Assembly (NCBI GenBank): GCA_016200345.1
Contig: JACQEX010000072.1
Location: 7,233 to 71,232 of the forward strand
Length of the DNA: 64,000 bases
Reading direction: 5' to 3'
From: Nitrospinota bacterium
GTDB taxonomy: Bacteria; Nitrospinota_A; UBA7883; JACRGQ01
Part shown: positions 37,889 to 54,445 of the stretch, piece after piece
Numbering within the stretch: position 1 is the stretch's first letter
Layout: each line of letters begins with the position of its first letter
Position numbers and translations under genes: made by a program
The notes under the pieces: model-generated
Told to the model about the DNA's origin: nothing
Database searches by the model: none
What the model saw: only the letters and a program-made list of their open reading frames with translations

Positions 37889-38461
37889 TTATCCCGGTGT
37901 TCTCCCAGTATACCGCATCACGGTCGCCACTTTAAATTGGAAATTGTAGAGCCTTTTTTCGGCGTCTATGGCGACCGGGATGATGACCGAGAAGGTCTTG
38001 TCCAGATTCGCCGGCGCCTTGTCGTCCTTGAGGTTGAAAAGCGGCTTTATGTACCACGTCCATTGTTCCATCTGCTCCTGGTTGTCCGCCGGAACGATTA
38101 GGTTTTCCTCGTCGGCCCCCGGCGCGATGCTTGTAGGCTTAATTTTGTCCTGGTCCTTGGAGATTGCGGTTTGTTTGTTCGCAACCTTGTGCTTGAATCC
38201 CTCCGGATCCACGTATTGCGCGTCGGGCCATTCCACCTCCACCGGTTTTGCGCCACGGTTGGAGATGAGCACGTTGATTTTCTTTTCCGTGAATTCGAAC
38301 TGAAACCGGAGAGAGGCATCCTCGTATACGCCGTCGTAGTTTTGAACCGGGGATATCATGGCGTAGGACTGGCGGTATTTGTAGGCCGAAAATCCGGCGC
38401 AAGAGACGGCGGAAAAGGCTCCCGCCAAAATGGCCGCGGACAGAATAGATTTCTTTTTCAT
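37889..38461 (-). CDS. hypothetical lipoprotein
   Basis: Signal peptide with lipobox-like ..FSAVSC. Its ATG overlaps the metH stop (ATGA). Confidence 0.6.
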   Translation of the reverse strand: MKKKSILSAAILAGAFSAVSCAGFSAYKYRQSYAMISPVQNYDGVYEDASLRFQFEFTEKKINVLISNRGAKPVEVEWPDAQYVDPEGFKHKVANKQTAISKDQDKIKPTSIAPGADEENLIVPADNQEQMEQWTWYIKPLFNLKDDKAPANLDKTFSVIIPVAIDAEKRLYNFQFKVATVMRYTGRTPG

Positions 38462-40893
38462 TTTGCCATCGCCTTCATCAGTTTTTCGGCCAGGGCCGGA
38501 ATTTCGCTTACGTCCCTTCCGTAGCCGTCCGCGCCGATCTCCTGGGCGAAGGATTTGGTGACCACCGCGCCCCCCACCATAATCCTATAGGGGAGGTTGC
38601 GCTTTTTAACCTCCTCCACAACGAGCGGCATTTGTATCATAGTCGTGGTCATAAGGGCGGAAAGCGCGAGGATGTCCGCGTTGTTTTCCTCCGCCGACCT
38701 TAGAATGTCGTCCAGTGGGACGTTTCTGCCCAAATCAACCACCTTGTAGCCGTAGTTTTGCAACATTATGCAACATACGTTTTTGCCGATGTCGTGAACG
38801 TCCCCCTTCACCGTCGCGAAAATAATCGTGCCGGCGTTTTTCCCCTTTCGTTCGGCGGCCAGCAATGGCTCCAATATTTCCATCGCCTTTTTCATCGTGT
38901 CCGCCGAGGCGACGAGGTGCGGGATGAATTTTTTACGCTCCGCGAAAAGATCCCCCACGCGCCGGATGGCCGGGGTCAGGTGATTAAAGAAAATGTCCAT
39001 CGGCTTCTCGCCTCCGGCCAGCGCGGTCTTGACCAGCGCCATAACCGAGTCCTTCTCCCCCTCCACCACCGCGTTAAAAATCGGGTGGTGTTTTACGGGC
39101 GATTCCCCCCCGGCGGAGGCCGACGGGGCGATAATTTTCGACTGCGGCTCCGAGACGGACTGAACCCATTTTCCCGCCTCCTCCATGTACCTTTTGCAAC
39201 CTACGTCGCGCCTTGTGAAAAGCGAGGCCGCTGACGAGGTTTTGTGTATCCATTCGTCATACGGGTTGACTATCGCGGCGTCCAGCCCCTCGGCCATGCA
39301 CATAGCCAAAAAGCCGTTGTTTATCGCCTGCCTGTCCGGCAGGCCGAAGGAGGTGTTTGAAAGCCCAACCGTGGTCGCGCAACCAAGCTCCTCCCTGATT
39401 CGGCGGATGGTGATAAGCGTCTGCGCCGCCCCCTCCTGCATGGCGGAAACCACCACCGAAAGGCAGTCGAACACAATGTCCTCGCGCCGAAGGCCGAGCG
39501 CAAGCGCGCGGTCAAGAATTCTTTTTGCGTACTCAAACCGTTTTTGGGCCGATTCCGGCACGTCCTCGCCCGCGGTGAGGGCGATTACGGCGGCGCCCAT
39601 CCGTTTTATGAGAGGGAGAATCGCCTCCATTTTTTCCGCCTCCGCGTTGACGGAGTTGACCAGCGCCCTGCCGGCATACACCGAAAGGCCGGTCGCAAGC
39701 GCGTTGTTGTTGGAGGAGTCAATCACCAGCGGAAGTCTTGTGACGTTTTGCAGGGCGGTCACGGCCTTCGCCATCATCTTCGGCTCGTCCGTTAGGGGAA
39801 CGCCGACGTTGACGTCGAGCGCCGATGCACCGGCCTCCTCCTGCTTGCGCGCCTCCAATAAAATGAGGTCGGTGTCCCCGTCCTTCACCGACTGGGCGAA
39901 TTTTTTTCTGCCGGTGGGGTTTATTTTTTCGCCGATTTTTACGAACGGTTTTCCCTCGCCAATCCATAACGCGCTGGAGCGGGATGATATGCCGACGCCC
40001 CCCCTGCCGCGTCTGGCGAGAACCGGCTTCCCCTTGACCAGGGCGGATATTTTTTGGATGTACTCCGGTCTTGTTCCACAACAGCCGCCGATGATGTTGG
40101 CGCCTAGCTCCACGAATTTTTCGGAGTAGGAGGCGATTTCGTCCATGGAGGCGAGGTAGCTGGTAATTCCGCCTTTTATGGTCGGAAGTCCGGCGTTTGG
40201 CTCCACCATTATGGGTAGGCTGGAGACCTCCGCAATTCGCCCGACGACCTCCAGCATCTCGGCCGGGCCTGTGGAGCAGTTCACGCCGATGACGTCCACG
40301 CCAAGCCCCTCCATGACGACCGCCGCGGCTTCGGGGCCGGTGCCGGTGTCGGTCACACCCCCGGCGGCGTACGTCATGCTCGCGATAAGCGGTGTGTTTT
40401 TTCGCACCTCGTTGCAGGCTATTATCGCGGCCTTCATCTCCATGAGGTCGAACATGGTCTCGATTATCAGGATGTCCGTCCCGGCCTCGACGAGCGCGGA
40501 GGCCTGTTGCCTGAAAATTGTTATCGCGTCCTCGAACGCCAGGTCGCCCACGGGGAACACCAGCCTACCGGACGGCCCCATGCCCCCCGCGACAAGCGCC
40601 CTGCCGTCGGCGCCGCGCCGCGCGTTTTCCACTGCGGCCCTGTTGATGGCCTTTAGGTCGCCATGTCTGCCGTATTCCTCCAGGCGCGGAACGCACGCTC
40701 CGAATGTGTTGGTGATTACAATCTGCGCCCCGGCGTCCACGTACCTCTTGTGGACGTTTACGATTACGTCCGGTTTTTCCAGGTTCCAAAGGTCGGGCGC
40801 GTACCCGGCGGGAAGCCCCTCGCCCTGTAGCAAGGCCCCCATGGAGCCGTCAATTATCATCACCTCTTTGGAGACTCTTTCGACGAATTTCAT
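38458..40893 (-). CDS. metH: cobalamin-dependent methionine synthase lacking the C-terminal AdoMet reactivation domain
   Basis: Hcy-binding, pterin-binding and B12-binding domains (DVHDIGKNV...SALMTTTM). 811 aa versus ~1230 for full-length MetH. Confidence 0.88.
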   Translation of the reverse strand: MKFVERVSKEVMIIDGSMGALLQGEGLPAGYAPDLWNLEKPDVIVNVHKRYVDAGAQIVITNTFGACVPRLEEYGRHGDLKAINRAAVENARRGADGRALVAGGMGPSGRLVFPVGDLAFEDAITIFRQQASALVEAGTDILIIETMFDLMEMKAAIIACNEVRKNTPLIASMTYAAGGVTDTGTGPEAAAVVMEGLGVDVIGVNCSTGPAEMLEVVGRIAEVSSLPIMVEPNAGLPTIKGGITSYLASMDEIASYSEKFVELGANIIGGCCGTRPEYIQKISALVKGKPVLARRGRGGVGISSRSSALWIGEGKPFVKIGEKINPTGRKKFAQSVKDGDTDLILLEARKQEEAGASALDVNVGVPLTDEPKMMAKAVTALQNVTRLPLVIDSSNNNALATGLSVYAGRALVNSVNAEAEKMEAILPLIKRMGAAVIALTAGEDVPESAQKRFEYAKRILDRALALGLRREDIVFDCLSVVVSAMQEGAAQTLITIRRIREELGCATTVGLSNTSFGLPDRQAINNGFLAMCMAEGLDAAIVNPYDEWIHKTSSAASLFTRRDVGCKRYMEEAGKWVQSVSEPQSKIIAPSASAGGESPVKHHPIFNAVVEGEKDSVMALVKTALAGGEKPMDIFFNHLTPAIRRVGDLFAERKKFIPHLVASADTMKKAMEILEPLLAAERKGKNAGTIIFATVKGDVHDIGKNVCCIMLQNYGYKVVDLGRNVPLDDILRSAEENNADILALSALMTTTMIQMPLVVEEVKKRNLPYRIMVGGAVVTKSFAQEIGADGYGRDVSEIPALAEKLMKAMAK

Positions 40894-43399: not shown

Positions 43400-43532
43400 G
43401 GCTCCGAAAAGTTCCGTTGCCGGAAGGCCACTTCGAACCCATAAAACCTCGGGGAAAATGTAGATGAGGCGTATTCGTGGCGCCTATTAAAAATAATTTT
43501 TGGCACCATAATTGCTTCTTGGAGACGACCAG

Positions 43533-44459
43533 ATGATGAGGGGTTGTAATGGAAGAAACAAATTTTGGGTGGTCATTTCACTTTTGGCCACCATTATGAT
43601 TTCATCCACAGGCTGTTCCGGCTCCGCCACCCCAAGTGCGTCATCCGGTAGCGGGACTTGGGCCGGCCTGGGCGTCAGCACAAAATCCGACACCATAACG
43701 GGCGTCGGCGGTCTGCCACACGCCCAGTACATGGTGGACAGCCACGCCACGCTTAGTTGTGTAAACTGCCATGCCTCCGGGGTGGCGAGGGAATCCATCT
43801 GCGTCAACTGCCACCCGTTAAACGCACTAGGCTCCTCAATCACCGGCACGGCGGTCGACCTCTCGACGGTAACCACAAATGCCAACCACGTCACTCTGTC
43901 CACCGGCACGCATTGCAACGCCTGCCACTACTCCAACAACGGTTCCGGCGCGGGCCAGGGGTGGCGATGGCCGACCATAACCGACACGACGATAGTGTCG
44001 CCGACGTTGAAGACTAGAATTAACCACGCGCAGTGGCACGGCATTTTAAAAGGGGTCTGCCTAAAATGCCATCCGTTTGCAAGCATAACGCTTCCGTCCG
44101 CGCATCCCTCCGTAAACTCCTCCACCGCCTGCGAGTCTTGCCACTATTATTTGAACGGCAAATGGGGCGGCAGGCACATCTTGGTGTCGAGCGGGTGCAA
44201 CCAGTCCGGTTGTCACGCCACCCACGCCCACTCCACCGTCTCCAGCAGAACCATCACGTCCGGGCAGTCGTTCGGGAGCATAGATTGCGCCAACTGCCAC
44301 CAGGCGTCGGTGTCGGGTAGCTTTGCGAACTGGCTTGGCGCGGGTCATGAATCCGTAAGCAACGGTTGCAACGCCTGCCACCAATACCACCACAACTCAA
44401 GCGACTGCGTAAGTTGCCACTCCGTAAACTATTCTTCCTGGTCGGGCGCGAGGGATTGA
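43533..44459 (+). CDS. lipoprotein multiheme c-type cytochrome (8 CxxCH + 1 CX4CH)
   Basis: Signal peptide with lipobox (LATIMISSTGCSG). Heme motifs CVNCH, CVNCH, CNACH, CLKCH, CESCH, CNQSGCH, CANCH, CNACH, CVSCH. GGAG SD before ATG 43533. Confidence 0.85.
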   Translation: MMRGCNGRNKFWVVISLLATIMISSTGCSGSATPSASSGSGTWAGLGVSTKSDTITGVGGLPHAQYMVDSHATLSCVNCHASGVARESICVNCHPLNALGSSITGTAVDLSTVTTNANHVTLSTGTHCNACHYSNNGSGAGQGWRWPTITDTTIVSPTLKTRINHAQWHGILKGVCLKCHPFASITLPSAHPSVNSSTACESCHYYLNGKWGGRHILVSSGCNQSGCHATHAHSTVSSRTITSGQSFGSIDCANCHQASVSGSFANWLGAGHESVSNGCNACHQYHHNSSDCVSCHSVNYSSWSGARD

Positions 44460-44488
44460 TTGAAAAACAATATTGGCAGAGATTTAAA

Positions 44489-47365
44489 ATGACGGTTCGT
44501 AAGGGGGGGGCGCATAAGGTTGCGTCGGCGCCGCGTCTATGGCTGTTTCTACTTTTGTTTCCGCTTGTTTTTGCGTCCCCGGCCCTTGCCGCCGATTTTG
44601 GAAGCCTGATAACTCCGGGCGAGCTTTCCTCCCTCCATAAGGAGGCGGACGGAATATCAAACTGCACCAAGTGCCACATAAGGGGGAGCGGAATAACCAA
44701 CTCGGCCTGTCTGGAATGCCACAAGGACGTCTCCTCCGCCATTGACTCCAAAATCGGGTACCACGCCTCCGTATCGTCGCAAAAGTGCATAGAGTGCCAC
44801 ACCGACCACAAGGGGAAATCGTTCTCGCTGGTGGATTGGAGCCCGAAAAAATTCGACCACTCCAAGGCCGGGTACAACCTCACGGGCAAACACTCGCAGA
44901 CCGCCTGCGAAAAATGCCACAAGACAAAAACAAAGGGAGGGGCTCAGAGCTACCTCGGCGCGCAAACCGCGTGCAAATCGTGCCACGAGGACGTCCATAA
45001 AGGGGAGTTCAAGGAGGCCGCCTGCGACACGTGCCACAACACCGAGGGGTGGAAGTGGAAATACGTCAGGTTCGACCACAACAAGCCCTACCCGCTTGAC
45101 GGCAAACACGAAAAAGTCCCGTGCCTAAAATGCCATCCCGTCAAGGCAATATTCCTCGTGCCTGAAAAAGAGAAGTGCGTCACCTGCCATTTGAAGGACG
45201 ACAAGCACAAGGGCAAGCTCGGCCCGGCCTGTGAAAAATGCCACAAGACCGCCGGGTGGAAGGACATTTTGATGGATCACTCAAAGACAAGGTATCCGCT
45301 TGTCGAAAAACATTTGCAGGTCGCGTGCGAAAAATGCCATGTTGACTCGAAGAAGACCGGCTCTTTCAAACTGGCCCGGTTCGACGTCTGCGACGCGCCG
45401 GGATGCCACGACGTCGGCAAATTTGGCAACGTGCACGAAAAACAGTTCGTCGGCAAAACCTGCGACGCGTGCCACAACGTCGCGGGGTTCAAGCCGTCGT
45501 TGTTCAAGCACGAGGCCCAGGCTTACGTTGGTTTCAAACTGGCCGGCAAACACGCGCAGACCGCGTGCGTAAAATGCCACAGGCCCGATCCCATCACGAA
45601 GGTCGCTCTCTTCAAGCCCATTGTAACCACGTCTTGCGACGTAAAAGGGTGCCACGACGTGAAGGAGCGCGGGAACATCCACGGGCTTCAGTTCAAGGGG
45701 CAGAAGTGCGACGCATGCCACAACGAGCAGGGATGGAAACCGACCGTGTTCAGGCACAACGACGAGCGGTACGCGGGCTTTAAACTTTTGGGCAAACATG
45801 AAAAGACGGAGTGCTCCAAGTGCCACGTTCCCGATTCGCTCACCAAAGCGGCGTTGTACAAGCCATTAAACAGTTCCTCGTGCGACGCGAGGGGATGCCA
45901 CGACGTGAAGGAGCGGGGGGGCGTACATGGTTCGCAGTTCAAGGGTCTGCGGTGCGAGACCTGCCACAACGAGCAGGGGTGGAAGCCGACCCTTTTCAAG
46001 CATTCCGACGATAGATTCCAAATCTTCCGGCTTGTCGGGAAGCACGAGAAAACTCCGTGCGAAAAATGTCACAGAGCCGACGCGGACACGAAGGTGGTCA
46101 AATACAGGCCGATAGTCAGCACCACGTGCGACTGGGGCGGTTGCCACGACGTGAAGGAGCGCGGGAACGTCCACGGCCCTCAGTTCAAGCGGCAAACGTG
46201 CGACTCCTGCCACAACGAGCAGGGATGGAAGCCGACGCTTTTCAAACACGACGACCCGAAGTACGCCGGGTTCAAACTTTTGGGCAAGCACGAGAAAACG
46301 CCCTGCGAAAAATGTCATCCGACCGGCCCCGTCGGGACGGCTGTATACAAGCCGATAAACTACTCCTCCTGCTCCGAGGTGGCCTGCCACAAAAATCCGC
46401 ACGGCGAACAGTTCACGGATAAAAAATGCGAGCAGTGCCACAACGAGAGGGATTGGAAGGAGCTTACCTTCAACCACAAGACTCAGTCGCGCTTCCCCTT
46501 GGAAGGAAAACATATCCCGGCAAAATGCGACAAGTGTCACGCCAACAAAGTTTGGCGTCCTCTGGCGATGGAGTGCATAAACTGCCACAAGAAAGACGAC
46601 GACAAGGCCCACGGCGGTAAAATGGGGGACAAGTGCGTCTCGTGCCACACCGCCCAAAACTGGGAGCCGAATAATTTCTTCCACGACGTAACGGGGTTCA
46701 AGCTCCAATGGGCGCACAAGCAGATTGCCTGCACCGAGTGCCACAAGACGAAGGGCGTTTTCGCCGGCCTCGGGCCGGAGTGCACAAAATGCCACACCGA
46801 CCCGCATCTGAACCAATTCGGGCCGGCCCAGTGCTCGCAATGCCACACGGCCAAAAACTGGTACGCGGAAAAATTCAACCACGGCTTCACCGGCTTCAGG
46901 CTGGAGGGGGGGCACAGGGCGGCCTCGTGCGAGCAGTGCCACAAAAACAGGGCGTACAGGAGCCTTTCCACGGACTGCTACCGATGCCACCAAAAAGAAT
47001 TTACGCGGTCCGCGTTCCACGCCGGGCAGGGCTCCACGAACTGCGTCCTCTGCCACAAGGTTTACGGATGGAATCCGGCCTCGTTTTTCCACAAGACTAT
47101 GACGTTTACCGGCTATCACAAGGTGATTCAGTACACCTGCACGTCGTGCCACACCTCCAACCCGCCGACGACGGCCAACCTAAAATGGGCCGCGTCCGTG
47201 CAGTCGCAATGCTCCGTTTGTCACACCCCGCCGCACCCGGCGTCGGGGGCGCACTCCACCGGGACCTGTCCGACGTCGTGCGATTTGTGCCACAACACGT
47301 CGAATTTTACCTCCGTCTCGTCCAGCCTTCCGTCCTGCAAGCCGGGGGTGAAACATGGGCGTTGA
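44489..47365 (+). CDS. secreted giant multiheme c-type cytochrome (~31 CxxCH + ~5 CX4CH; tandem c7-like triheme modules)
   Basis: Signal peptide (..LVFASPALA|ADFG). 958 aa with CxxCH roughly every 25-30 aa. Repeated module C-x4-CHDVKERG...C-x2-CHNEQGWKPT.F.H....GFKL.GKHE.T.C.KCH, four times. Confidence 0.9.
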   Translation: MTVRKGGAHKVASAPRLWLFLLLFPLVFASPALAADFGSLITPGELSSLHKEADGISNCTKCHIRGSGITNSACLECHKDVSSAIDSKIGYHASVSSQKCIECHTDHKGKSFSLVDWSPKKFDHSKAGYNLTGKHSQTACEKCHKTKTKGGAQSYLGAQTACKSCHEDVHKGEFKEAACDTCHNTEGWKWKYVRFDHNKPYPLDGKHEKVPCLKCHPVKAIFLVPEKEKCVTCHLKDDKHKGKLGPACEKCHKTAGWKDILMDHSKTRYPLVEKHLQVACEKCHVDSKKTGSFKLARFDVCDAPGCHDVGKFGNVHEKQFVGKTCDACHNVAGFKPSLFKHEAQAYVGFKLAGKHAQTACVKCHRPDPITKVALFKPIVTTSCDVKGCHDVKERGNIHGLQFKGQKCDACHNEQGWKPTVFRHNDERYAGFKLLGKHEKTECSKCHVPDSLTKAALYKPLNSSSCDARGCHDVKERGGVHGSQFKGLRCETCHNEQGWKPTLFKHSDDRFQIFRLVGKHEKTPCEKCHRADADTKVVKYRPIVSTTCDWGGCHDVKERGNVHGPQFKRQTCDSCHNEQGWKPTLFKHDDPKYAGFKLLGKHEKTPCEKCHPTGPVGTAVYKPINYSSCSEVACHKNPHGEQFTDKKCEQCHNERDWKELTFNHKTQSRFPLEGKHIPAKCDKCHANKVWRPLAMECINCHKKDDDKAHGGKMGDKCVSCHTAQNWEPNNFFHDVTGFKLQWAHKQIACTECHKTKGVFAGLGPECTKCHTDPHLNQFGPAQCSQCHTAKNWYAEKFNHGFTGFRLEGGHRAASCEQCHKNRAYRSLSTDCYRCHQKEFTRSAFHAGQGSTNCVLCHKVYGWNPASFFHKTMTFTGYHKVIQYTCTSCHTSNPPTTANLKWAASVQSQCSVCHTPPHPASGAHSTGTCPTSCDLCHNTSNFTSVSSSLPSCKPGVKHGR
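45389..46372 (+). repeat. four tandem in-frame 246-bp repeats (82-aa triheme modules) inside the giant cytochrome gene, plus a degenerate fifth unit
   Basis: TGCGAC...GGNTGCCACGACGT repeat anchors at 45389, 45635, 45881 and 46127 (period exactly 246 nt). A divergent unit starts at 46370. Confidence 0.85.
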
Positions 47366-48638
47366 GAGGCCTGGTATCGCGAAGGTCTTGTGCGCGGCGG
47401 CGCTGGTGTTGTTGCCTGTCGAGGGCTTTGCGATGAACCTTAAGGGGCGTGTTTCGGAGTCGGTCTTGTACGTTACCGACGACTCCGCAAAACAAAACTA
47501 CTCCTACACGTGGAGCAAGCTAAGGCTGGACGCAACCGATATTTACGGCAACAAGGAGAACAGCGCGCATTTCGACGGCGCCTACACGGGCGCGTCCTCC
47601 AACGTTTACAACAGCCAGACCCCGCCGACAAGGATTAATTACGCGAACGTAAAAATGGAGAAACTGTTTCAAGACACCGACGTGGTCATCGGCAGGCAGG
47701 CGATAGACGACCTTGTGGGGGCGAGGCTGGACGGCGCGCTATTTGACATGCACTCGTCCGACGCCGCCGGTCTCGGCGTTTTCGGCGGCACGATGCCGGA
47801 TCCGTACATGGATTATTTTTCCTCCGGCTTCCTAACTTTTGGCGGCTTTGGGTATTACAAAAAAAAGGAGGCCGGGGTCACGCTTGGTTACGCGGAAAGC
47901 CTGTACAACGGCAACGAGGACCAGGCGTATATTTACGGCTCGACCTACCTGGCCCCGACGGACGAATTTGACGTGAACGGCTCCGCAAGGCTCGACCACA
48001 ACGCCGGCAACACCAGCGGATATGATTTCACCAACCTTTTGGTCAACGCCAACTACCGAAGCGGGTGGCGCGCCAACTTAAACCTAACGTACAACCAATA
48101 CCGCGCCGTCTGGTACCAGGCGTCGGAAACGATGAACTACGGGCTTGACATGGCGTTGCAAAAATCGGCGCGCGTTTTCACCGACGTCGCGTTGGTTCCG
48201 ACCGTGAAGGTGTACGCCGACTATGACTATCGCATAAGGGACAGCGACGGCCTGTCTGCCTCCCTGCTGATGGTGGGGCTGAAGGAGAACGACTTGATGG
48301 AGATTTTTTACTACAACGTCTCGTATCGCAACATAAATTATTTCACCGCCGTTTCATGGCAGGGGGCGCTTGCGGTCGGGGCGCAGTTCAACGAAAAGGC
48401 CACGGCCGAGTTGGGCGCGGCATACTCTGAAAACCAGCAAAACCAGACCTCGAACGGCATGACGCAGATTATTTACACCGCCTCGGCCGACTACACCGCC
48501 TCAAAATCTTGGATGTTCAACTGCTCGGTGGAGACCTCCACCCAGAAGTTTGTAAGCGTCGACTCCGTGTATCTGTCGAAATACAACGACCAATACCAGA
48601 CCACGACGGTTTTTGCCAACCTCACCTACCGTTTTTAA
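47355..48638 (+). CDS. outer-membrane beta-barrel (porin-like) protein
   Basis: Signal peptide (..LLPVEGFA|). Alternating amphipathic beta-strand pattern rich in Y/N/G/T. C-terminal ...ANLTYRF with terminal Phe. Start overlaps the cytochrome gene end. Confidence 0.75.
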   Translation: MGVERPGIAKVLCAAALVLLPVEGFAMNLKGRVSESVLYVTDDSAKQNYSYTWSKLRLDATDIYGNKENSAHFDGAYTGASSNVYNSQTPPTRINYANVKMEKLFQDTDVVIGRQAIDDLVGARLDGALFDMHSSDAAGLGVFGGTMPDPYMDYFSSGFLTFGGFGYYKKKEAGVTLGYAESLYNGNEDQAYIYGSTYLAPTDEFDVNGSARLDHNAGNTSGYDFTNLLVNANYRSGWRANLNLTYNQYRAVWYQASETMNYGLDMALQKSARVFTDVALVPTVKVYADYDYRIRDSDGLSASLLMVGLKENDLMEIFYYNVSYRNINYFTAVSWQGALAVGAQFNEKATAELGAAYSENQQNQTSNGMTQIIYTASADYTASKSWMFNCSVETSTQKFVSVDSVYLSKYNDQYQTTTVFANLTYRF

Positions 48639-48820: not shown

Positions 48821-49903
48821 TCAATCGCTGAACGGGTCCTGTTGGTCGTAGATTATGGAGTAGCTTATCGGACGGTAATTGGCCGAGCCGGACTTGGGGA
48901 TTAGAAACTGGTTCGCCACCCTCAGCCATTGGACGTCGGGCAAAAGCTCGCGAAGCTTTCCGTCCGGCGGAGGCGTGGAGTGCTCGTTCCTTTCGTACAC
49001 CACCTGAAAAACCGCCACGCCGTAGTCGTCGGCCCGGTGCACCAGGTAGTTGTCCCTAAATTCCCTCGCGGTCATCAGCCCGTCCTTTTCTATCATCTCG
49101 ACGTGCTCCGACGGAATTTTAACCAGGCAGTGCTTGGCGACGTTGTCCCGCGTGATTTTTGAGAACGTGCGCGACTCGGAGCTGTTCACGTACACGGTCG
49201 CCAGCGAGTCCCCCATGCTGAGAAGCTGATAGGCGACCATGGCGGCCGTCCGCCTGCCCGATACGGTGTGGTGGAAGCTGTAGTACTCGAAAAGTTTCTC
49301 CACCAGCGTCTCGGCGTATTTGTCCCCCTTTTCGTAAAGGTCCTTCGATATGTAGCGAAGTTGTTTCCCCAGCGACTCCGCGGCGAAGTCAATCAGCCAG
49401 TCTATGCGCACGTGAAAATGCGAGAGGTGGTAGCGCACCCTTTTTCGGGCGGAGGCGTCCTGCTGTATGAGCAGGGCGTAGTCCACGGGGAGGAGGCTTT
49501 TCAAAAGGTCGTGGAATTTTTCGTGCTCGTAATATTTTTGCACCTTCAAAAGTTGCGGGGCCACGCGCGCGCTTGAAAGGACTATCTCGGGCAGGTTTTC
49601 CTTGGTGACCTTGTTGTTGTCGAAATATCGGATGTATTTTTTCAGGTCGGCGCGCACCTCGTCCTCGGTAAAAATAACTATGAAGCCGTTGATGAGGTCG
49701 TTCTCGGTCTCCGTGACCTTGCCGCGCGGCTTTAGCTCCCTTTTTTCGACGAACTTGTAGTCGGCCTTCGCGTCGAGAAAATTCTTATAGGAGTCGTTCA
49801 CGCCGTAGTCAATGAGCGAGAAATCCAGCTCGTTGCGCAGGGTCGTGTAAAGCGCCCTTCGCAACTTTTGGTTTCTACTCAGCTCGGCGTCGGATTTAAA
49901 CAT
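48821..49903 (-). CDS. hypothetical cytoplasmic protein (360 aa), no recognisable family
   Basis: Long uninterrupted ORF starting at ATG 49903. Has an Rx5H segment (RKRVRYHLSHFH) of uncertain meaning. Confidence 0.55.
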   Translation of the reverse strand: MFKSDAELSRNQKLRRALYTTLRNELDFSLIDYGVNDSYKNFLDAKADYKFVEKRELKPRGKVTETENDLINGFIVIFTEDEVRADLKKYIRYFDNNKVTKENLPEIVLSSARVAPQLLKVQKYYEHEKFHDLLKSLLPVDYALLIQQDASARKRVRYHLSHFHVRIDWLIDFAAESLGKQLRYISKDLYEKGDKYAETLVEKLFEYYSFHHTVSGRRTAAMVAYQLLSMGDSLATVYVNSSESRTFSKITRDNVAKHCLVKIPSEHVEMIEKDGLMTAREFRDNYLVHRADDYGVAVFQVVYERNEHSTPPPDGKLRELLPDVQWLRVANQFLIPKSGSANYRPISYSIIYDQQDPFSD

Positions 49904-50004: not shown

Positions 50005-51354
50005 CTATCGGGGTCTGGATTCGCCGTGGTGCGTGTCCATGCTGACTCCGCAGGCGCGAAGAAATTCGTTCGGAAGGTTGCCGCCCGCAAACACAAAGAC
50101 GGAGTCGTTCGGATATTCGCGCACGTTCCCCTTTTGCTCGATTGTCACGGAGTCGGTCTTTATCTCCTTCACGTTGGACTCCATCATGAGGGCCACTTTT
50201 TTACCCGCGACAAGGTTGTCCAGCCTTTTTTGATTGTCCGCCTTGATTCTTCCGAACGCCGGACCGCGATACGAAAGCGACACATTTGTCCCTTTCTGGC
50301 ACGAAAAGGCGACCGCGGCCTCCACAGCGCTGTCGCCGCCGCCGACTACCAAAATTTTTTGGTTTTCGTGGTGTTCCGGCTCCAATAGCCTGTACATCAC
50401 CTTTGGAAGTTGCTCCCCCGGAACGCCGAGTTTTCTAGGCGTGCCCCTTCGTCCCGTGGTCAGCAGAACATACCTTGTGCTGATGTTTCTATTCGAGGTC
50501 TTAACATTAAACGCCTCTCCCGTGTTTTCGATGGAGAGGGCCTTTTCGCCGGTGTTTATCTCCAGCCCCGTTTTCTCGACGATGTTTTTCCAAAGCGCCA
50601 CAAGCTCCTCTTTGCTAAGCGTGCCGACTTTTATTTTGCCGTACATCGGAACGTCCGCTGGCCGGGTCATGACCACCTTTGCGCGCGGGTAGGAGAGTAT
50701 GGCGCCGCCGAAGGATTCCTCCTGGTCCAGCAACAAGAACTTCATCTTTAAAAATTTCGCCTGTAGGGCGGCGGACATCCCCGCCGGGCCGGCGCCGACA
50801 ACCACCAAGTCCACCATGTCCGCCGGTCTGTTATACGGCGCACCCCTAAAATCCTCGAAACTATAATCCACCGCCTCCTTTCCCTGAAGGATGGCGTTTT
50901 TTATAAGGCCCATTCCACCCAATTCCCCGGCGATAAAAAGTCTTTTTACGTTGGACTCGAAGTTTGGAAAAACCTGCGGCAGGTCTACGCCGCGCTTTTC
51001 CGTTCCGAACACAAGCTCGATGGCTCCGACCGGGCACGCCCTGGCGCAGGCCCCGTGCCCCACGCACCTCGAGGCGTATATGGGCTCGGCCTGGTTGTTT
51101 ACCTTGCCCAAAATCTCCTGCTCGGGGCAGGCGGTGATGCAGGCCCCGGAGCCTATGCATATGGCCTTGTTAACCTTCGGGTGAATCGTCGCCGGCTCGT
51201 AAAGCCCGAATTTTTGCGCCTCGGATATCTTGACCCTCACCTTTTTCGACTTCTTTTTTTGCGACATCAGATAAGGAACGAGCACGACGGCCACGATGAA
51301 CGCCCCCACCACAAACGTGGCGTTTTCCATTAACAGCGACGTTAAAAAATCCAT
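50005..51354 (-). CDS. membrane-anchored 2x[4Fe-4S] ferredoxin domain fused to FAD/NAD(P)-dependent pyridine nucleotide-disulfide oxidoreductase (TrxR-like)
   Basis: N-terminal TM helix. CIGSGACITACP and CVGHGACARACP cluster motifs. Two Rossmann GxGxxG/A motifs (VVVGAGPAGMSAA, ILVVGGGDSAVEAA). Confidence 0.8.
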   Translation of the reverse strand: MDFLTSLLMENATFVVGAFIVAVVLVPYLMSQKKKSKKVRVKISEAQKFGLYEPATIHPKVNKAICIGSGACITACPEQEILGKVNNQAEPIYASRCVGHGACARACPVGAIELVFGTEKRGVDLPQVFPNFESNVKRLFIAGELGGMGLIKNAILQGKEAVDYSFEDFRGAPYNRPADMVDLVVVGAGPAGMSAALQAKFLKMKFLLLDQEESFGGAILSYPRAKVVMTRPADVPMYGKIKVGTLSKEELVALWKNIVEKTGLEINTGEKALSIENTGEAFNVKTSNRNISTRYVLLTTGRRGTPRKLGVPGEQLPKVMYRLLEPEHHENQKILVVGGGDSAVEAAVAFSCQKGTNVSLSYRGPAFGRIKADNQKRLDNLVAGKKVALMMESNVKEIKTDSVTIEQKGNVREYPNDSVFVFAGGNLPNEFLRACGVSMDTHHGESRPR

Positions 51355-51355
51355 T

Positions 51356-52249
51356 TCAAACCTTGAACAGGTAAAAGACCCCTATGTGCAAAAACATCAC
51401 GATGAACATGATTACGGCAAACGGTTTATGGAAGACGTGCCAGTGGTGGAGCAGTTTGTGCGACACGTCCAAAAACATCCGCGAACGGACCAGCCTTCGT
51501 TTCTCCTTTATCAACCAGTAGAGCCTGTGCTTCACGTGGGCGGGCATGGAGACGTCGCCCTTCAACTCGGCCCGCACCCGCCACAGGGCGCCCATGTTTT
51601 CCAAATCGGCCTTCGCCATCGCGAAGAGCGAGGCAAGGGCGCCGCTTTCCTCGTCGGGCGGCTCCGTCGAAATGCCGTCGAAATGCGACGATACGCGCGG
51701 CCCCGACTCGTATTTGTTTATCTGGGCGTTAATAGTCTCCATAGACTCGTCCAAATCTCCCATCATCAGTTCGTTTCCCGTGACGCTTCTGGGAATCTTC
51801 ACGTAAAGATAGCGGCCCAATATGCCGCTAAGCGCCACCAGCACCGCCGACCAGTAGCTGAGGGAGACGATGCCGCCGAATTTGTAGGTGCTGTGCACGG
51901 TAATCAGCACGGTGCCGACGATTCCCAAAAAAATATGAACGTCCAGCCACAACCTTATCGGCCCGGCGTCCACCATAAACTTAAAGCGCTTTCTAAAGGA
52001 GTAGAGCATCATTATAACAAAACAGGCGGAACCGAGCCAGCCGGTGAGGTGCCAAATCCCCTTGTTTGGCTCTTTGGCGACCTTGTATGTCGTCATCCCC
52101 GCCTCGTTCAGCCACTTAACGATGCCGTACGGTTTGCCGGTCAGCTGTAGCCAGCTTTCGACCAAAATGACGGCCGACCCGGCAAGACCGGCGATGGTAA
52201 GAAAATTTATCGTCAATTCCAGCAGGCCGCCCTGTTTTTTTTGCGCCAT
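51356..52249 (-). CDS. integral membrane protein with paired conserved His in TM helices (ferric-reductase/cytochrome b-like di-heme transmembrane domain)
   Basis: Five or six TM helices. His pairs 13 residues apart in TM3 (DVHIFLGIVGTVLITVHS) and His-rich TM5 (HHWHVFHKPF...FLHIG). AGGAG SD. Only 1 nt gap to the oxidoreductase gene. Confidence 0.6.
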   Translation of the reverse strand: MAQKKQGGLLELTINFLTIAGLAGSAVILVESWLQLTGKPYGIVKWLNEAGMTTYKVAKEPNKGIWHLTGWLGSACFVIMMLYSFRKRFKFMVDAGPIRLWLDVHIFLGIVGTVLITVHSTYKFGGIVSLSYWSAVLVALSGILGRYLYVKIPRSVTGNELMMGDLDESMETINAQINKYESGPRVSSHFDGISTEPPDEESGALASLFAMAKADLENMGALWRVRAELKGDVSMPAHVKHRLYWLIKEKRRLVRSRMFLDVSHKLLHHWHVFHKPFAVIMFIVMFLHIGVFYLFKV

Positions 52250-52545
52250 CTTTTTCTCCTACTCTTTTATTTCGTGGCGCCCGATTTTATTACATACCCG
52301 GTGCCCGTGTATACAGGGTAGTTTAGCCGGGTCAGTTCATAGCAATTTGTCCAATTATTGCAAAAAGCACAAAAAACGCCAAAGATGCAAAAAAGGTCAA
52401 TAAAGTCAAAGACGCAAAGGCCCTCCATGCAGATGCGGTGTATAAAGTAGACATGATGGATTGTGGCATAGGAGCAGAAGTTAAGAATGTGAATTTTCGC
52501 TTTTCTTTCTGGAGTTGTCAAGAAGCCACATAAAGGAAAATCCAT

Positions 52546-52574
52546 TTGACAAAAAATCACGGTTTTGGTAGTCT
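52546..52574 (+). promoter_or_regulatory. sigma70-like promoter (TTGACA -17 nt- TAGTCT) upstream of small ORF 52621
   Basis: TTGACA at 52546-52551, 17-nt spacer, TAGTCT at 52569-52574. It lies in an AT-rich divergent intergenic region. Confidence 0.4.
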
Positions 52575-52620
52575 CCAGTAAGAAGTCAGCGAAGTAATTC
52601 ATTTTATAGAGAGAACACAT

Positions 52621-52839
52621 ATGACGGATTTTTTATTCGCCACCCCGGGATTTTTTATGGGGATGGTTCGGGCATTGGATTTGGGCTCTACGTTTAACGC
52701 TTATAACGCAAGCAAAACCCCCTCTGAAGCTGATGCACTGGCTTTTTATAATGACTTTAAGGCCATTGGCGACGACCTTCGCTTGGTTATGAAGAGTGAA
52801 GAGGCGAAAATAGCCGCAAAATCTCTTAAGTTGGCGTGA
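52621..52839 (+). CDS. hypothetical small protein (72 aa) in AT-rich segment
   Basis: Preceded by a sigma70-like promoter (TTGACA-17-TAGTCT). No known family. Confidence 0.4.
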   Translation: MTDFLFATPGFFMGMVRALDLGSTFNAYNASKTPSEADALAFYNDFKAIGDDLRLVMKSEEAKIAAKSLKLA

Positions 52840-52991
52840 GCAAACGTAAGAGCCATTCCGTAAGTATCACCCAACACAAACTTACTGTTGGCCCTATCCC
52901 ACCTCCCGAGCAACTCGCCCGGTATAATGCGATTGTTCCTGGGTTCGCCGAACGTATCATAAGCAGATGGGAAGAATAGGGAACCCATCGC

Positions 52992-53234
52992 ATGAAGTTG
53001 GAGAGGGATGTCATCGGGTCGGGTATTTGGCTAGCGTATCTTGGCCTTCTTTCTGCATTTGTTTTGGGGCTGGTTGGCGTTGGAGGCGGGATTTGGCTTA
53101 TCCACGATGGAAAAGATGTATATGGGCTAGCCGCCAGCATTACGGCCTTGGGGACGCTTGCGGGTGTATATATTTGGGGAAAATCAAAACAGGGGAAAGA
53201 GCTTCAAGGGAAGCGTGAGATCATAGGACGATAG
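52992..53234 (+). CDS. hypothetical small 2-TM membrane protein (80 aa)
   Basis: Two G-rich hydrophobic helices (GIWLAYLGLLSAFVLGLVGVGGGIWLI; GLAASITALGTLAGVYIW). Confidence 0.4.
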   Translation: MKLERDVIGSGIWLAYLGLLSAFVLGLVGVGGGIWLIHDGKDVYGLAASITALGTLAGVYIWGKSKQGKELQGKREIIGR

Positions 53235-53587
53235 ACTTCTTGTCCATTGTCCCATACCAGTTTGGCAAGCTGTACTGGGTCGCTCGGACATTCTAATCGC
53301 TTTTTCATGCTCCCGTTATAAGACACAAGTTAAGGAAAATACACTTTTTGACTTATTCACAATTCAAACTGGCCCACTACAGTTTTGCCACATCGTAAAA
53401 CGTGGGGTCATTGGTAGCGACATTCCCACTCCCCTAGAATTACTGGTGCGGTGTTTTTGTGGCGCGAGTGTTACGATTCCAACGCATTTCGTCGATTTTG
53501 CTTGAAATCTGAAGTTATTAAGTCAAAAATTTCAATAAGTTAAGAAATGGCCTTTGGCATTTAAATTGCTCATTTGGAGCGGGCATT

Positions 53588-54445
53588 ATGAAAAGGGTCA
53601 ACACACTTAATTGGAATAATCGCATGGCGAGGCTGTCGCCGGTTTTTGCAACGATTTCTGCGTTACTTTTCTTTGCGGGGTGCGGGGAGGGGGAGTCAAA
53701 ACCGAACCTTCAGTCACCAACGTCGGGTAGTGTTGGGATTGTCCTTAAGGATTGGGTCGGGGTGGGGGTGAATACCGTCACCACTTCGGCGGCTTTGTCG
53801 TCCGTCAACCACAGCGAATATCTATTGGGTTCCCACGCTTCTTATACGTGCGCCGATTGCCACAATCCGGTGGATTCGACCACCGGTTTGCAGACCGCGA
53901 TACAACGCGACCAAATATGCGCCCGATGTCATCCGTTTTCTAGATATAGCGCGGTGACGACAAGCGTGGATCACGTCGCGTTGAAATCCGGGACTCATTG
54001 CAACGCCTGCCACCATTCAGCCTCCGGCGCGTCGCTTTCCACAATTATCGGATGGAGGTGGTCCTCCGTCACCAGCCCCATCGTCCGCGTGACGCACAAA
54101 ACATGGCACGGCAACGTTAAGGGAACCTGCCTAAACTGCCACACTCTGGCAAACGAAACGCTTCCGTCCTCCCACCCGGCCGTGACGTCCGCCACGGCGT
54201 GCGAGCCGTGCCACCATTACTCAAACGGCAAATGGGCCGGCCAGCACCGCAAGGTCACGAGCGGATGCAACATATCCGGGTGCCACACCGGGCATTATTC
54301 CGGCAACGACTGCTCCCTGTGTCACACCGGCGCCGCGGCGGGGGGATACACGAACTGGGCTATTTCATTCAGCAAAGGGGGGCACCAAATACAGTTCGGT
54401 TCGGCCTCGTGCGGGATATGCCACAGCGGGGGCTTTGGCGACTAA
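53588..54445 (+). CDS. lipoprotein multiheme c-type cytochrome (7 CxxCH + 1 CX4CH), paralog of 43533-44459
   Basis: Lipobox LLFFAGCG. Heme motifs CADCH, CARCH, CNACH, CLNCH, CEPCH, CNISGCH, CSLCH, CGICH. About 50% identity to the upstream lipoprotein cytochrome over the core (SGTHCNACH...GCN.SGCH). Confidence 0.85.
   Translation: MKRVNTLNWNNRMARLSPVFATISALLFFAGCGEGESKPNLQSPTSGSVGIVLKDWVGVGVNTVTTSAALSSVNHSEYLLGSHASYTCADCHNPVDSTTGLQTAIQRDQICARCHPFSRYSAVTTSVDHVALKSGTHCNACHHSASGASLSTIIGWRWSSVTSPIVRVTHKTWHGNVKGTCLNCHTLANETLPSSHPAVTSATACEPCHHYSNGKWAGQHRKVTSGCNISGCHTGHYSGNDCSLCHTGAAAGGYTNWAISFSKGGHQIQFGSASCGICHSGGFGD

What the first reader, a model, noticed from the sequence alone, without database searches (positions are those of the whole stretch)
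43533..48638. Undescribed porin-cytochrome gene cluster: lipoprotein nonaheme cytochrome, a ~36-heme secreted cytochrome and a porin-like outer-membrane barrel
Three co-directional, tightly spaced genes. The cytochrome and porin genes overlap by 11 nt. They encode (i) a lipobox-bearing cytochrome with 8 CxxCH + 1 CX4CH, (ii) a 958 aa signal-peptide cytochrome with ~31 CxxCH + ~5 CX4CH, and (iii) a 427 aa beta-barrel protein ending in ...LTYRF. Lipoprotein cytochrome + periplasmic multiheme cytochrome + porin is the architecture of the porin-cytochrome conduits used for extracellular electron transfer (Mtr/Pcc-type). Here the gene order, the heme count, the modular repeat structure and the barrel sequence do not correspond to any conduit I can name. 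A 36-heme chain at ~1 nm per heme could span tens of nanometres. That makes it a candidate for a nanowire-like or periplasm-spanning conduit.
Basis: partly seen in the sequence, partly recalled or inferred. Interest (0 to 1): 0.88.

Follow-up and report, generated by a model that had tools for sequence, protein, structure and literature searches.

The report
PCC3-type porin-cytochrome conduit in Nitrospinota
The three genes are real and most likely encode an electron conduit across the outer membrane, but it is a Nitrospinota version of the predicted, never tested "PCC3" porin-cytochrome system of iron-oxidising bacteria, not an undescribed kind.

Summary
There is a lipobox cytochrome with 9 heme motifs (43533-44459), a 958-aa secreted cytochrome with 36 heme motifs (44489-47365) and a 427-aa outer-membrane beta-barrel (47355-48638) that overlaps the cytochrome gene by 11 nt.

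The conduit reading is supported; the claim that it matches no known conduit is not. The 36-heme protein is 36% identical over 725 residues to the 27-heme periplasmic cytochrome of Gallionellaceae clusters with PCC3 architecture (He et al. 2017).

- The defining PCC3 inner-membrane protein (51356-52249), with two WX3HX13H motifs and SGxxG; hhalign probability 99.8% against the Gallionellaceae one.
- A membrane-anchored 2[4Fe-4S]-FAD oxidoreductase (50005-51354), 47-49% identical to the one beside those clusters.

The barrel is the divergent part. Its family is rare (53 cluster representatives among 1.84 billion), the model has 22 strands, and similarity to the 720-aa PCC3 porin appears only with a family profile.

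New points: this is a Nitrospinota variant, the Fe-S flavoprotein is a recurrent companion not mentioned in the PCC3 papers I read, and sigma-54-type promoter elements precede the cytochrome operons.

Verdict: new variant of a known but experimentally unproven kind.

The parts
43501..43515 (+). Sigma-54-type -24/-12 promoter-like element (TGGCACCATAATTGC), 17 nt before the start codon of gene A
   Evidence: Exact consensus match. Similar elements lie upstream of the first cytochrome gene at all 8 Nitrospinota operon starts checked. The background rate is 0.064 per upstream region, so P is about 3e-10. Function is inferred, not shown.
43533..44459 (+). Gene A: lipoprotein-type nonaheme c-type cytochrome (308 aa), the proposed outer-surface cytochrome
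   Evidence: 8 CxxCH and 1 Cx4CH with a lipobox. Pfam Cytochrome_C7 at 25.3 bits. S+T+G+A is 44% of residues, as described for PCC3 extracellular cytochromes. 36% identical to a lipoprotein cytochrome in L001 and 26% to the one preceding B in L011.
44489..47365 (+). Gene B: secreted 36-heme c-type cytochrome (958 aa) built of 12 triheme modules, the proposed periplasm-spanning wire
   Evidence: 31 CxxCH and 5 Cx4CH; motif spacing repeats as 35-23-24 (82-aa module, four times) or about 32-17-18. Pfam Cytochrome_C7 matches 6 stretches, E 1.5e-26. 36% identical over 725 aa to the 27-heme cytochrome of Gallionellaceae locus L013, E 1e-103.
47355..48638 (+). Gene C: 427-aa outer-membrane beta-barrel, the proposed sheath for the cytochrome chain
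50005..51354 (-). Membrane-anchored 2[4Fe-4S] ferredoxin domain fused to an FAD/NAD(P)H oxidoreductase (449 aa), the proposed cytoplasmic electron entry or exit point
   Evidence: Pfam Fer4_10 and Pyr_redox_3/2. The flavodomain is nearest YpdA/Bdr, thioredoxin-reductase-type and ferredoxin-NADP reductase proteins. 47-49% identical to the protein next to Gallionellaceae PCC3-type clusters and 42% to the one inside the L005 operon.
51356..52249 (-). PCC3-type inner-membrane protein (297 aa), a putative di-heme b transmembrane relay; its stop codon overlaps the start of the flavoprotein gene
   Evidence: WLDVH-x13-H, SGILG and WHVFH-x13-H motifs. H105, H119, H274 and H288 are invariant in 30 homologues. 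The AF2 model has five long membrane helices and pLDDT 76.5. hhalign probability 99.8%, E 1.7e-27, against the Gallionellaceae IMP. Pfam Ferric_reduct is only weak, at 17 bits.
53555..53569 (+). Second sigma-54-type promoter-like element (TGGCATTTAAATTGC), 18 nt before the start codon of A2
   Evidence: One mismatch to the consensus, at the same distance from the start codon as the element before gene A.
53588..54445 (+). Gene A2: paralogous lipoprotein octaheme cytochrome (285 aa; lipobox FFAGC), followed by dnaK
   Evidence: 7 CxxCH and 1 Cx4CH. Pfam Cytochrome_C7 and Paired_CXXCH_1. 35% identical to the lipoprotein cytochrome in L001, which occupies the same position beyond the IMP operon.

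Best explanation
The locus encodes a PCC3-type electron conduit across the cell envelope of a Nitrospinota bacterium.

Proposed path, all inferred:
1. A cytoplasmic, membrane-anchored flavoprotein (FAD plus two [4Fe-4S] clusters) exchanges electrons with NAD(P)H.
2. It passes them to a five-helix inner-membrane protein that holds two b-type hemes between four invariant histidines.
3. The periplasmic-side heme hands electrons to the 36-heme cytochrome B. B is a chain of 12 triheme modules, long enough in principle to cross the periplasm.
4. One end of B sits in the 22-strand barrel C. The genes are translationally coupled, and the S/T-rich, charge-poor C-terminal 80 residues of B are my guess for the inserted end.
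5. Electrons reach the surface lipoprotein cytochrome A (and perhaps A2), and from there an insoluble or extracellular redox partner.

I favour outward flow, that is disposal of cytoplasmic reducing equivalents onto extracellular acceptors. The inner end is an NAD(P)H-type flavoenzyme rather than a quinol oxidase, and outward electron movement runs with the membrane potential. Direction is the weakest step.

The cytochrome operons appear to be transcribed from sigma-54 promoters.

Shown: gene content, motifs, folds, homology and synteny. Inferred: cofactor binding, localisation, assembly, direction and substrate.
For: - Anatomy: heme motif counts, signal peptides, lipobox and the 11-nt overlap.
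- B-C adjacency is conserved in all seven related loci examined: L001, L002, L003/L004, L009, L011 and L012. The full A-B-C trio is conserved in L011.
- Homology to Gallionellaceae clusters with PCC3 architecture (IMP, 27-heme cytochrome, 11-12-heme cytochrome, 720-aa porin, with the flavoprotein gene divergent):
  - B: 36% over 725 aa, E 1e-103.
  - Flavoprotein: 47-49%, E about 1e-124 to 1e-134.
  - IMP: E 7e-14 by BLASTP, and 99.8% probability by hhalign.
  - Loci.
- IMP motifs match He et al.'s definition, WX3HX13H twice plus SGxxG.
- In L005 all five component types lie in one co-directional operon: IMP, MHC, MHC, barrel, flavoprotein. Its barrel is a relative of C.
- The IMP, flavoprotein and multiheme cytochrome genes are also linked in L015 and L016.
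- The flavodomain belongs to the NAD(P)H-dependent TrxR/YpdA/FNR-like group.
- LpxD and LpxK genes in the window indicate an LPS outer membrane.
- Sigma-54-like elements occur at 8 of 8 operon starts.
Against: - No PCC3 system has been shown experimentally to move electrons. In Sideroxydans ES-1 both PCC3 clusters were down-regulated on Fe(II), and the outer cytochrome was not detected in proteomes.
- The barrel is not detectably similar to the PCC3 porin by BLASTP or by hhalign with 16 sequences (probability 0.6%). Only a broader family HMM gives 29.6 bits, over the first third of the profile.
- Gene A is not adjacent to B-C in most relatives (L001, L002, L003), so a three-protein complex is not universal.
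- IMP and B-C lie on different contigs in one MAG (L004 and L007).
- The barrel model rests on 8 sequences, and only one of five models was confident.
- No complex model could be made.
- Outer-surface exposure of a lipoprotein is assumed.
Confidence: 0.65

Rival explanations
1. The hardware is the same PCC3-type conduit but it runs inward. The surface cytochrome takes electrons from Fe(II), Mn(II) or reduced minerals, and the inner-membrane protein delivers them to the quinone pool. This is He et al.'s original model.
For: - PCC3 was discovered in neutrophilic iron oxidisers, and this direction was proposed for it.
- Relatives of the barrel come mostly from groundwater and vent MAGs, where Fe(II) is plausible.
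- The electron-transfer direction of multiheme conduits such as Mto/Mtr is considered reversible.
Against: - The conserved partner at the inner end is an NAD(P)H-type Fe-S flavoprotein, not a quinone-site protein.
- Inward electron movement through a two-heme transmembrane relay works against the membrane potential (established bioenergetics).
- PCC3 genes in ES-1 are down-regulated on Fe(II).
Confidence: 0.2
2. B is a periplasmic-only electron store or shuttle (a capacitor) for the IMP-flavoprotein module. The barrel is a porin or assembly factor that does not carry electrons, and nothing reaches the cell surface.
For: - Large periplasmic multiheme cytochromes have been suggested to store charge.
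- IMP, flavoprotein and cytochrome linkage occurs in L015 without an identified barrel in the part of the contig seen.
- Distant barrel relatives (P0035, P0036, P0044) carry non-cytochrome N-terminal domains, so the fold is not exclusive to cytochrome systems.
Against: - B-C coupling, by overlap or abutment, is strictly conserved from 37% to 56% barrel identity.
- The close barrel family is found next to B homologues in every locus examined.
- Lipoprotein cytochromes accompany the system.
- Barrels also occur in the L005 and Gallionellaceae operons.
Confidence: 0.1
3. This is a member of an established conduit family (MtrCAB/MtoAB/PioAB, Geobacter Pcc/Ext, or Cyc2) that has diverged beyond recognition.
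For: - The overall three-part logic is the same.
- There are weak sub-threshold hits: DmsE/MtrA family at 24.4 bits and MtrC/MtrF domain II/IV at 41 bits, within the repeat region.
Against: - C has no MtrB_PioB (Pfam) match.
- TIGR03508 scores 24 bits against a cut-off of 192.
- The barrel carries no heme motif, so it is not Cyc2-like.
- Much stronger full-length homology exists to PCC3 components.
Confidence: 0.03

Closest known systems
PCC3 porin-cytochrome c cluster (He et al. 2017, PMC5566968; Gallionellaceae survey PMC10734462; Sideroxydans ES-1 Slit_1446-1449 and Slit_0867-0870)
   Same: - Same component set: beta-barrel, a very heme-rich repeat-built periplasmic cytochrome at about 26-27 residues per heme, a second S/T/G/A-rich cytochrome, and a roughly 300-aa five-helix IMP with SGxxG and two WX3HX13H motifs.
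- B, the IMP and the neighbouring Fe-S flavoprotein are demonstrably homologous to those of Gallionellaceae loci with PCC3 architecture.
- The Leptothrix PCC3 porin is also predicted to have 22 strands.
   Different: - Phylum Nitrospinota instead of Proteobacteria. I found no paper that mentions both PCC3 and Nitrospin*.
- B has 36 hemes against 21-27, three extra triheme modules.
- The outer cytochrome is a small lipoprotein with 9 hemes, against 10-63 hemes. The Gallionellaceae ones I read have a Sec-type signal peptide rather than a lipobox. Homology of A to them is not established.
- The barrel is 427 aa against about 720 aa, and is only profile-level similar.
- The IMP and flavoprotein form a separate, divergent operon.
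- Gene order is outer cytochrome, periplasmic cytochrome, barrel, rather than IMP, periplasmic, outer, porin.
PCC4 cluster (He et al. 2017)
   Same: A porin, periplasmic multiheme cytochromes and an IMP with the same motif architecture. Subgroup II also has an Fe-S protein gene next to the IMP gene.
   Different: PCC4 has three small cytochromes (4, 5 and 10 hemes) and no outer cytochrome. Its Fe-S protein is a pfam13247 type without a flavin domain. Its IMP family is stated to be unrelated in overall sequence to the PCC3 IMP.
MtrCAB / MtoAB / PioAB
   Same: A periplasmic multiheme cytochrome sheathed by an outer-membrane barrel and capped by a surface lipoprotein cytochrome. This is the only such architecture with a solved structure (6r2q).
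   Different: Those systems have a 10-heme MtrA and a 26-strand MtrB, with CymA/quinol as the inner-membrane link. Family models were tested here and not met.
Ferric-reductase-domain systems: NOX/FRE and bacterial MsrQ with its cytoplasmic flavin reductase (my knowledge of these families)
   Same: The logic of the inner module is shared: NAD(P)H, then flavin, then two stacked b hemes held by paired His on two helices, then an acceptor on the outer face of the membrane. He et al. noted the HX13H resemblance.
   Different: Here the flavin module is a separate polypeptide carrying two [4Fe-4S] clusters. The Pfam Ferric_reduct match is below threshold, at 17 bits against 28. There are five helices rather than six. 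The acceptor is a multiheme cytochrome.
Polymerised c7-type triheme cytochromes of Geobacter (GSU1996 type; NCBIfam TIGR04257 'nanowire_3heme')
   Same: B is a concatenation of triheme units that hit Cytochrome_C7 six times.
   Different: TIGR04257 scores only 16.4 bits against a cut-off of 40. B has 12 modules rather than 4. Five of the modules (four 82-aa repeats and the following variant copy) each contain a Cx4CH site. No PDB relative was found by sequence.

Membership tests
PCC3 (He et al. 2017) | Predicted beta-barrel outer-membrane protein encoded next to a multiheme cytochrome gene | tested here: met
PCC3 (He et al. 2017) | Periplasmic multiheme cytochrome with very many hemes, a low residues-per-heme ratio (about 26-27) and internal repeats each carrying heme sites | tested here: met
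   36 motifs in 958 aa gives 26.6 residues per heme. Triheme periodicity, with four 82-aa repeats. Compare PCC3 values.
PCC3 (He et al. 2017) | Second, extracellular multiheme cytochrome enriched in Thr, Ser, Ala and Gly | tested here: inconclusive
   A has 44% S+T+G+A and a lipobox. It has only 9 hemes and no significant BLASTP match to the Gallionellaceae outer cytochromes. A2 gives E 1e-6 to one of them. Localisation cannot be tested here.
PCC3 (He et al. 2017) | Conserved inner-membrane protein of about 300 aa with five TM helices, SGxxG on TM4, and WX3HX13H on TM3 and TM5 | tested here: met
   297 aa, with W101-H105-H119 on helix 98-120, S141-G142-G145 on helix 127-150, and W270-H274-H288 on the last helix. 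All are invariant in 30 homologues.
PCC3 (He et al. 2017) | Sequence homology of the components to PCC3 clusters of iron oxidisers | tested here: met
   - B: 36% over 725 aa, E 1e-103.
- IMP: hhalign probability 99.8%.
- Barrel: only a family-HMM hit of 29.6 bits, with shuffled controls at or below 2.5 bits, and none by hhalign with 16 sequences.
- Caveat: L013 and L014 are taken as PCC3 from taxon, gene order and heme counts, not from direct comparison with the Slit_ proteins.
PCC3 (He et al. 2017) | All four genes in one cluster | tested here: inconclusive
   The IMP is 2.7 kb beyond the barrel, in a divergent operon. The arrangement is the same in L001. In one MAG the two parts are on different contigs.
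PCC3 (He et al. 2017) | Carries electrons between the cell and an extracellular partner | not testable with these tools
   This has never been shown for any PCC3. Expression data in ES-1 argue against a role in Fe(II) oxidation under the conditions tested.
MtrCAB/MtoAB/PioAB | MtrB/PioB-family barrel (26 strands in the solved Mtr complex 6r2q, my knowledge) | tested here: not met
MtrCAB/MtoAB/PioAB | Decaheme MtrA/DmsE-family periplasmic cytochrome | tested here: not met
   TIGR03508 scores 24.4 bits against a cut-off of 192.2.
Cyc2 | Monoheme cytochrome fused to the barrel | tested here: not met
   C has no CxxCH motif.
Geobacter Pcc/Ext conduits (OmaB-OmbB-OmcB, ExtABCD and others) | Homology to OmbB/ExtB-type barrels and OmaB/OmcB cytochromes | not tested
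   No reference sequences or dedicated models were available. The only related NCBIfam hits (ExtN/ExtO, to A2) score 16.6 bits against a cut-off of 200.
Ferric reductase domain superfamily (PF01794) | Two pairs of His, 13 residues apart, on two helices, binding two b hemes; match to the family model | tested here: inconclusive

The most novel reading that the evidence does not exclude
PCC3-type systems are five-component, NOX-like electron export chains: NAD(P)H, then FAD, then two [4Fe-4S] clusters, then two b hemes, then a periplasm-spanning multiheme wire, then a barrel and a surface cytochrome. They bypass the quinone pool. The same inner module (IMP plus Fe-S flavoprotein) feeds giant cytochromes in several phyla, namely Nitrospinota, Gallionellaceae and at least three unclassified lineages, including a 2518-aa cytochrome in L015. 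The Nitrospinota form is a minimal, sigma-54-controlled version with its own compact 22-strand barrel. That would give supposedly aerobic nitrite-oxidiser relatives a way to respire or vent electrons onto minerals.
Probability: 0.3. Interest if true: 0.7.

Novelty: new variant of a known kind. Interest (0 to 1): 0.5.

Why it matters
- PCC3 is one of the most widespread predicted extracellular electron transfer systems with no experimental proof. This locus extends it to Nitrospinota, a phylum known for aerobic nitrite oxidation.
- It offers the most compact barrel yet linked to such a system, at 427 aa, which could be easier to express and solve.
- The consistent pairing of the PCC3 inner-membrane protein with an NAD(P)H-type Fe-S flavoprotein is not mentioned in the PCC3 papers I could read. 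If real, it changes the proposed inner end of the pathway from the quinone pool to cytoplasmic pyridine nucleotides. It would also bear on why PCC3 is not induced by Fe(II) in Sideroxydans.
- For this window alone, the result is a solid functional annotation of eight features currently labelled 'hypothetical protein'.

Tried and rejected
- **B as a fusion of the PCC3 periplasmic and outer cytochromes.** B residues 729-940 hit the Gallionellaceae outer cytochrome (E 8e-14). Tested alone, that segment matches internal repeats of the periplasmic cytochromes better (E 1e-23 to 1e-26, against 1e-15). I read it as repeat expansion, not fusion.
- **Direct profile comparison of the barrel with the PCC3 porin.** Probability 0.6%. 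Only the wider family HMM gave a signal.
- **Genome scan with the 16-sequence barrel alignment.** It failed for lack of a conserved stretch. The 8-sequence alignment found only 5 loci.
- **Sequence searches of A, B and the IMP against the PDB.** Nothing usable.
- **Foldseek against AFDB.** The library was unavailable.
- **Sigma-70 promoter and terminator scans.** At chance level.
- **Window-wide count of sigma-54-like sites.** At chance, 5 found against 4.5 expected. Only their position upstream of cytochrome operons is non-random.
- **He et al. supplement.** It holds no sequences.
- **Bioanode paper PMC7399161.** No relevant text.
- **Literature on genes flanking Slit PCC3.** None found.
- **The 360-aa ORF at 48821-49903.** It has no family match and is not conserved in related loci, so I left it out of the system.
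Full report
**1. Observation**

- Gene A (43533-44459, +) encodes 308 aa with 8 CxxCH and 1 Cx4CH. Its N-terminus ends in ...IMISSTGC, which fits the lipoprotein signal pattern.
- Gene B: the long ORF opens at a TTG at 44366. The ATG at 44489 gives 958 aa, identical to the NCBI protein 'hypothetical protein HY280_07785 [Nitrospinae bacterium]'.
- B has 31 CxxCH and 5 Cx4CH, 75 histidines and a Sec-type signal peptide.
- Gene C (47355-48638, +) encodes 427 aa without heme motifs. It has a signal peptide and ends ...LTYRF. It overlaps B by 11 nt.
- Two independent Logan assemblies reproduce the gene order.

The surroundings are ordinary chromosomal genes: flagellin, lpxD, lpxK, glycine cleavage, thrS, metH, dnaK and suf genes. 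This is therefore a diderm chromosome and not an island.

**2. The three proteins**

*Cytochrome B*
- B hits Pfam Cytochrome_C7 in six stretches, plus Cytochrom_c3_2 and the MtrC/MtrF domain II/IV model. No named NCBIfam family comes near its cut-off.
- Heme-motif spacing shows 12 triheme modules. Four are near-identical 82-aa repeats that each contain a Cx4CH; the following, more divergent module carries the fifth Cx4CH.
- That gives 26.6 residues per heme.
- The last 80 residues are 32% Ser+Thr and almost uncharged.

*Cytochrome A*
- A is 44% Ser+Thr+Gly+Ala.

*Barrel C*
- C has no Pfam or NCBIfam family.
- An AlphaFold2 model built from eight homologues has pLDDT 76.4 and 22 beta-strands. 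Only one of the five models was confident.
- So the refutation condition 'not a beta-barrel' is not met.
- The family is rare. There are 7 hits in the 5.8-billion-protein set, 53 cluster representatives among 1.84 billion and 5 loci among 185,579 species genomes. All five are Nitrospinota or 'Nitrospirae' MAGs, mostly from groundwater.

**3. Synteny**

- In every related locus the barrel gene directly follows, overlapping or abutting, a B homologue with 29-36 heme motifs. These are L001, L002, L003/L004, L009, L011 and L012.
- In L011, where the barrel is 37% identical, a 12-heme lipoprotein cytochrome precedes the pair, so the trio recurs.
- In L001, L002 and L003 no lipoprotein cytochrome is adjacent. 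L001 has one 6.7 kb downstream, which is where the window has a paralogue, A2 (53588-54445, 8 heme motifs, lipobox FFAGC).
- The conserved core is therefore B plus C, with A-type lipoprotein cytochromes loosely attached.

**4.

Two translationally coupled genes lie on the minus strand downstream of C.

*Inner-membrane protein (52249-51356, 297 aa)*
- It carries WLDVH-x13-H, SGILG and WHVFH-x13-H. This is exactly the motif set that He et al. (2017) give as the signature of the conserved inner-membrane protein of their PCC3 and PCC4 clusters.
- The four histidines are invariant in 30 homologues.
- The model shows five long membrane helices and a helical insert of about 110 residues between helices 4 and 5.
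- By the positive-inside rule (my inference), H105/H274 lie near the cytoplasmic face and H119/H288 near the periplasmic face. That is the geometry of a two-heme transmembrane relay.

*Fe-S flavoprotein (51354-50005, 449 aa)*
- It has an N-terminal membrane helix followed by a lysine-rich stretch, then a 2[4Fe-4S] ferredoxin domain, then an FAD/NAD(P)H domain.
- The flavin domain is nearest to YpdA/Bdr, thioredoxin-reductase-type and ferredoxin-NADP reductase proteins.

**5. Link to PCC3**

A search with B found a 666-aa protein from a Gallionellaceae MAG. Its contig (L013) and a second one (L014) carry, in order:
- a divergent Fe-S flavoprotein gene;
- a 295-309-aa IMP with the same motifs;
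- a 27-heme cytochrome;
- an 11-12-heme cytochrome;
- a 717-722-aa protein without Pfam domains.

This matches the gene order given for Sideroxydans ES-1 PCC3, Slit_1446 to Slit_1449 (IMP, periplasmic cytochrome, extracellular cytochrome, porin). It also fits the heme ranges reported for Gallionellaceae PCC3.

Comparison of the window proteins with the L013 and L014 proteins:

| Component | Result |
|---|---|
| B vs periplasmic cytochrome | 36% over 725 aa, E 1e-103 |
| Flavoprotein | 47-49% over full length, E 1e-124 to 1e-134 |
| IMP (BLASTP) | 21-25%, E about 1e-13 |
| IMP (hhalign) | probability 99.8%, E 1.7e-27 |
| Barrel (BLASTP, 16-sequence profile) | no match |
| Barrel (HMM of the whole family) | 29.6 bits on L013 porin residues 274-407; reversed and shuffled controls at most 2.5 bits |

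The barrel HMM hit includes the family's invariant GRQ...R.DG motif. I read the barrel as a distant, N-terminally truncated relative of the PCC3 porin, and I mark this as weak.

A third arrangement, L005 (a 4.7-Mb unclassified genome), puts everything in one operon: IMP, 20-heme cytochrome, 25-heme cytochrome, 526-aa barrel, flavoprotein. Its barrel is recognisably related to C. L015 and L016 again link the IMP and flavoprotein to multiheme cytochromes, one of them 2518 aa long.

**6. Mechanism**

The best-supported reading is a PCC3-type trans-envelope conduit. Every step is inferred from sequence, fold and synteny; none is shown biochemically.
1. Flavoprotein (cytoplasmic face).
2. Di-heme IMP.
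3. 36-heme cytochrome B across the periplasm.
4. Barrel C.
5. Lipoprotein cytochrome A.

On length: by analogy with MtrA, whose 10 hemes span about 8-10 nm (my knowledge; also cited), a linear 36-heme chain would exceed the width of a periplasm.

On direction, I favour outward flow for three reasons:
- The conserved inner partner is an NAD(P)H-class flavoenzyme.
- Outward electron movement is aided by the membrane potential.
- PCC3 in ES-1 is down-regulated on Fe(II).

He et al.'s inward model, ending at the quinone pool, remains a live rival.

**7. Regulation**

A sigma-54-type element lies at the same distance from the start codon of two paralogous genes:
- TGGCACCATAATTGC, 17 nt before A.
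- TGGCATTTAAATTGC, 18 nt before A2.

Elements with the GG/GC core and at most 2 mismatches occur upstream of the first cytochrome gene at all 8 Nitrospinota operon starts examined. The background chance is 0.064 per region, so P is about 3e-10.

A sigma-54 enhancer-binding response regulator gene adjoins the IMP gene in L001 and L007. None is present in this window. The very short distance to the start codon leaves the Shine-Dalgarno-like GGAG upstream of the expected transcription start, and I cannot explain that.

**8. Comparison and novelty**

- The cluster fails the membership tests for Mtr/Mto/Pio and for Cyc2.
- It meets the motif, architecture and homology tests for PCC3, except for the barrel and the outer cytochrome, which are inconclusive.
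- I found no paper that mentions PCC3 together with Nitrospinota.
- He et al.'s text does not mention the flavoprotein, and no paper in the searched library mentions the genes flanking the Sideroxydans PCC3 clusters.

My verdict is a new variant of a known, purely predicted kind. Its features are a new phylum, an expanded periplasmic wire, a compact divergent barrel, a lipoprotein outer cytochrome, a split operon layout and sigma-54 control.

Interest is moderate. The locus does sharpen an open question, namely what PCC3 does and where its electrons come from.

Noticed in passing
window 43501-43515 and 53555-53569; L001, L002, L003, L009, L011 upstream of the first cytochrome gene: Sigma-54-type -24/-12 elements precede all 8 Nitrospinota cytochrome operon starts examined. 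In the window they sit 17 and 18 nt before the start codons of the paralogues A and A2. That would place the GGAG ribosome-binding motif upstream of the expected transcription start.
   Followed up: partly
window 50005-51354 (-); L001, L005, L007, L013, L014, L015, L016: A membrane-anchored 2[4Fe-4S]-FAD/NAD(P)H oxidoreductase is encoded next to, or in the same operon as, the PCC3-type inner-membrane protein in 8 of the 9 IMP loci where the neighbours could be read, across several phyla. The exception is L006. The PCC3 papers I read do not mention it.
   Followed up: partly
L015 13466-18861 (runs off the locus): A multiheme cytochrome gene with a called product of 2518 aa follows an IMP, flavoprotein, TPR protein and 564-aa cytochrome operon in an unclassified metagenome contig.
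   Followed up: no
proteins P0035, P0036, P0044: Distant relatives of the barrel (E 1e-8 to 1e-12) carry long N-terminal extensions with duplicated SPOR-like repeats instead of sitting next to cytochromes. The barrel fold is therefore reused in another, unknown context.
   Followed up: no
L002 7296-10011: In the MAG GCA_016194375 the B homologue is split into two overlapping frames inside the 82-aa repeat region. This is probably a frameshift or a collapsed repeat in the assembly.
   Followed up: no
window 48821-49903 (-): A 360-aa ORF lies between the barrel gene and the flavoprotein gene. It has no Pfam or NCBIfam match and is not conserved at this position in related loci, which carry HEPN and nucleotidyltransferase genes there.
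   Followed up: partly
window 52250-53580: A low-GC stretch (0.47 against about 0.56) between the IMP gene and A2 holds only small ORFs, for example an 80-aa membrane-like ORF at 52992-53234. In L001 and L007 a sigma-54 activator gene occupies the position next to the IMP gene.
   Followed up: no
window 37889-40893 (-) and L007 4115-7098: A metH-like gene followed by a conserved lipoprotein-like gene of about 190 aa lies near the IMP operon both in the window and in another Nitrospinota MAG. This suggests a rearranged but shared neighbourhood.
   Followed up: no
window 30400-32903 (-): Two adjacent radical SAM/SPASM-domain genes, a type often tied to peptide maturation. They are unrelated to the finding.
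   Followed up: no
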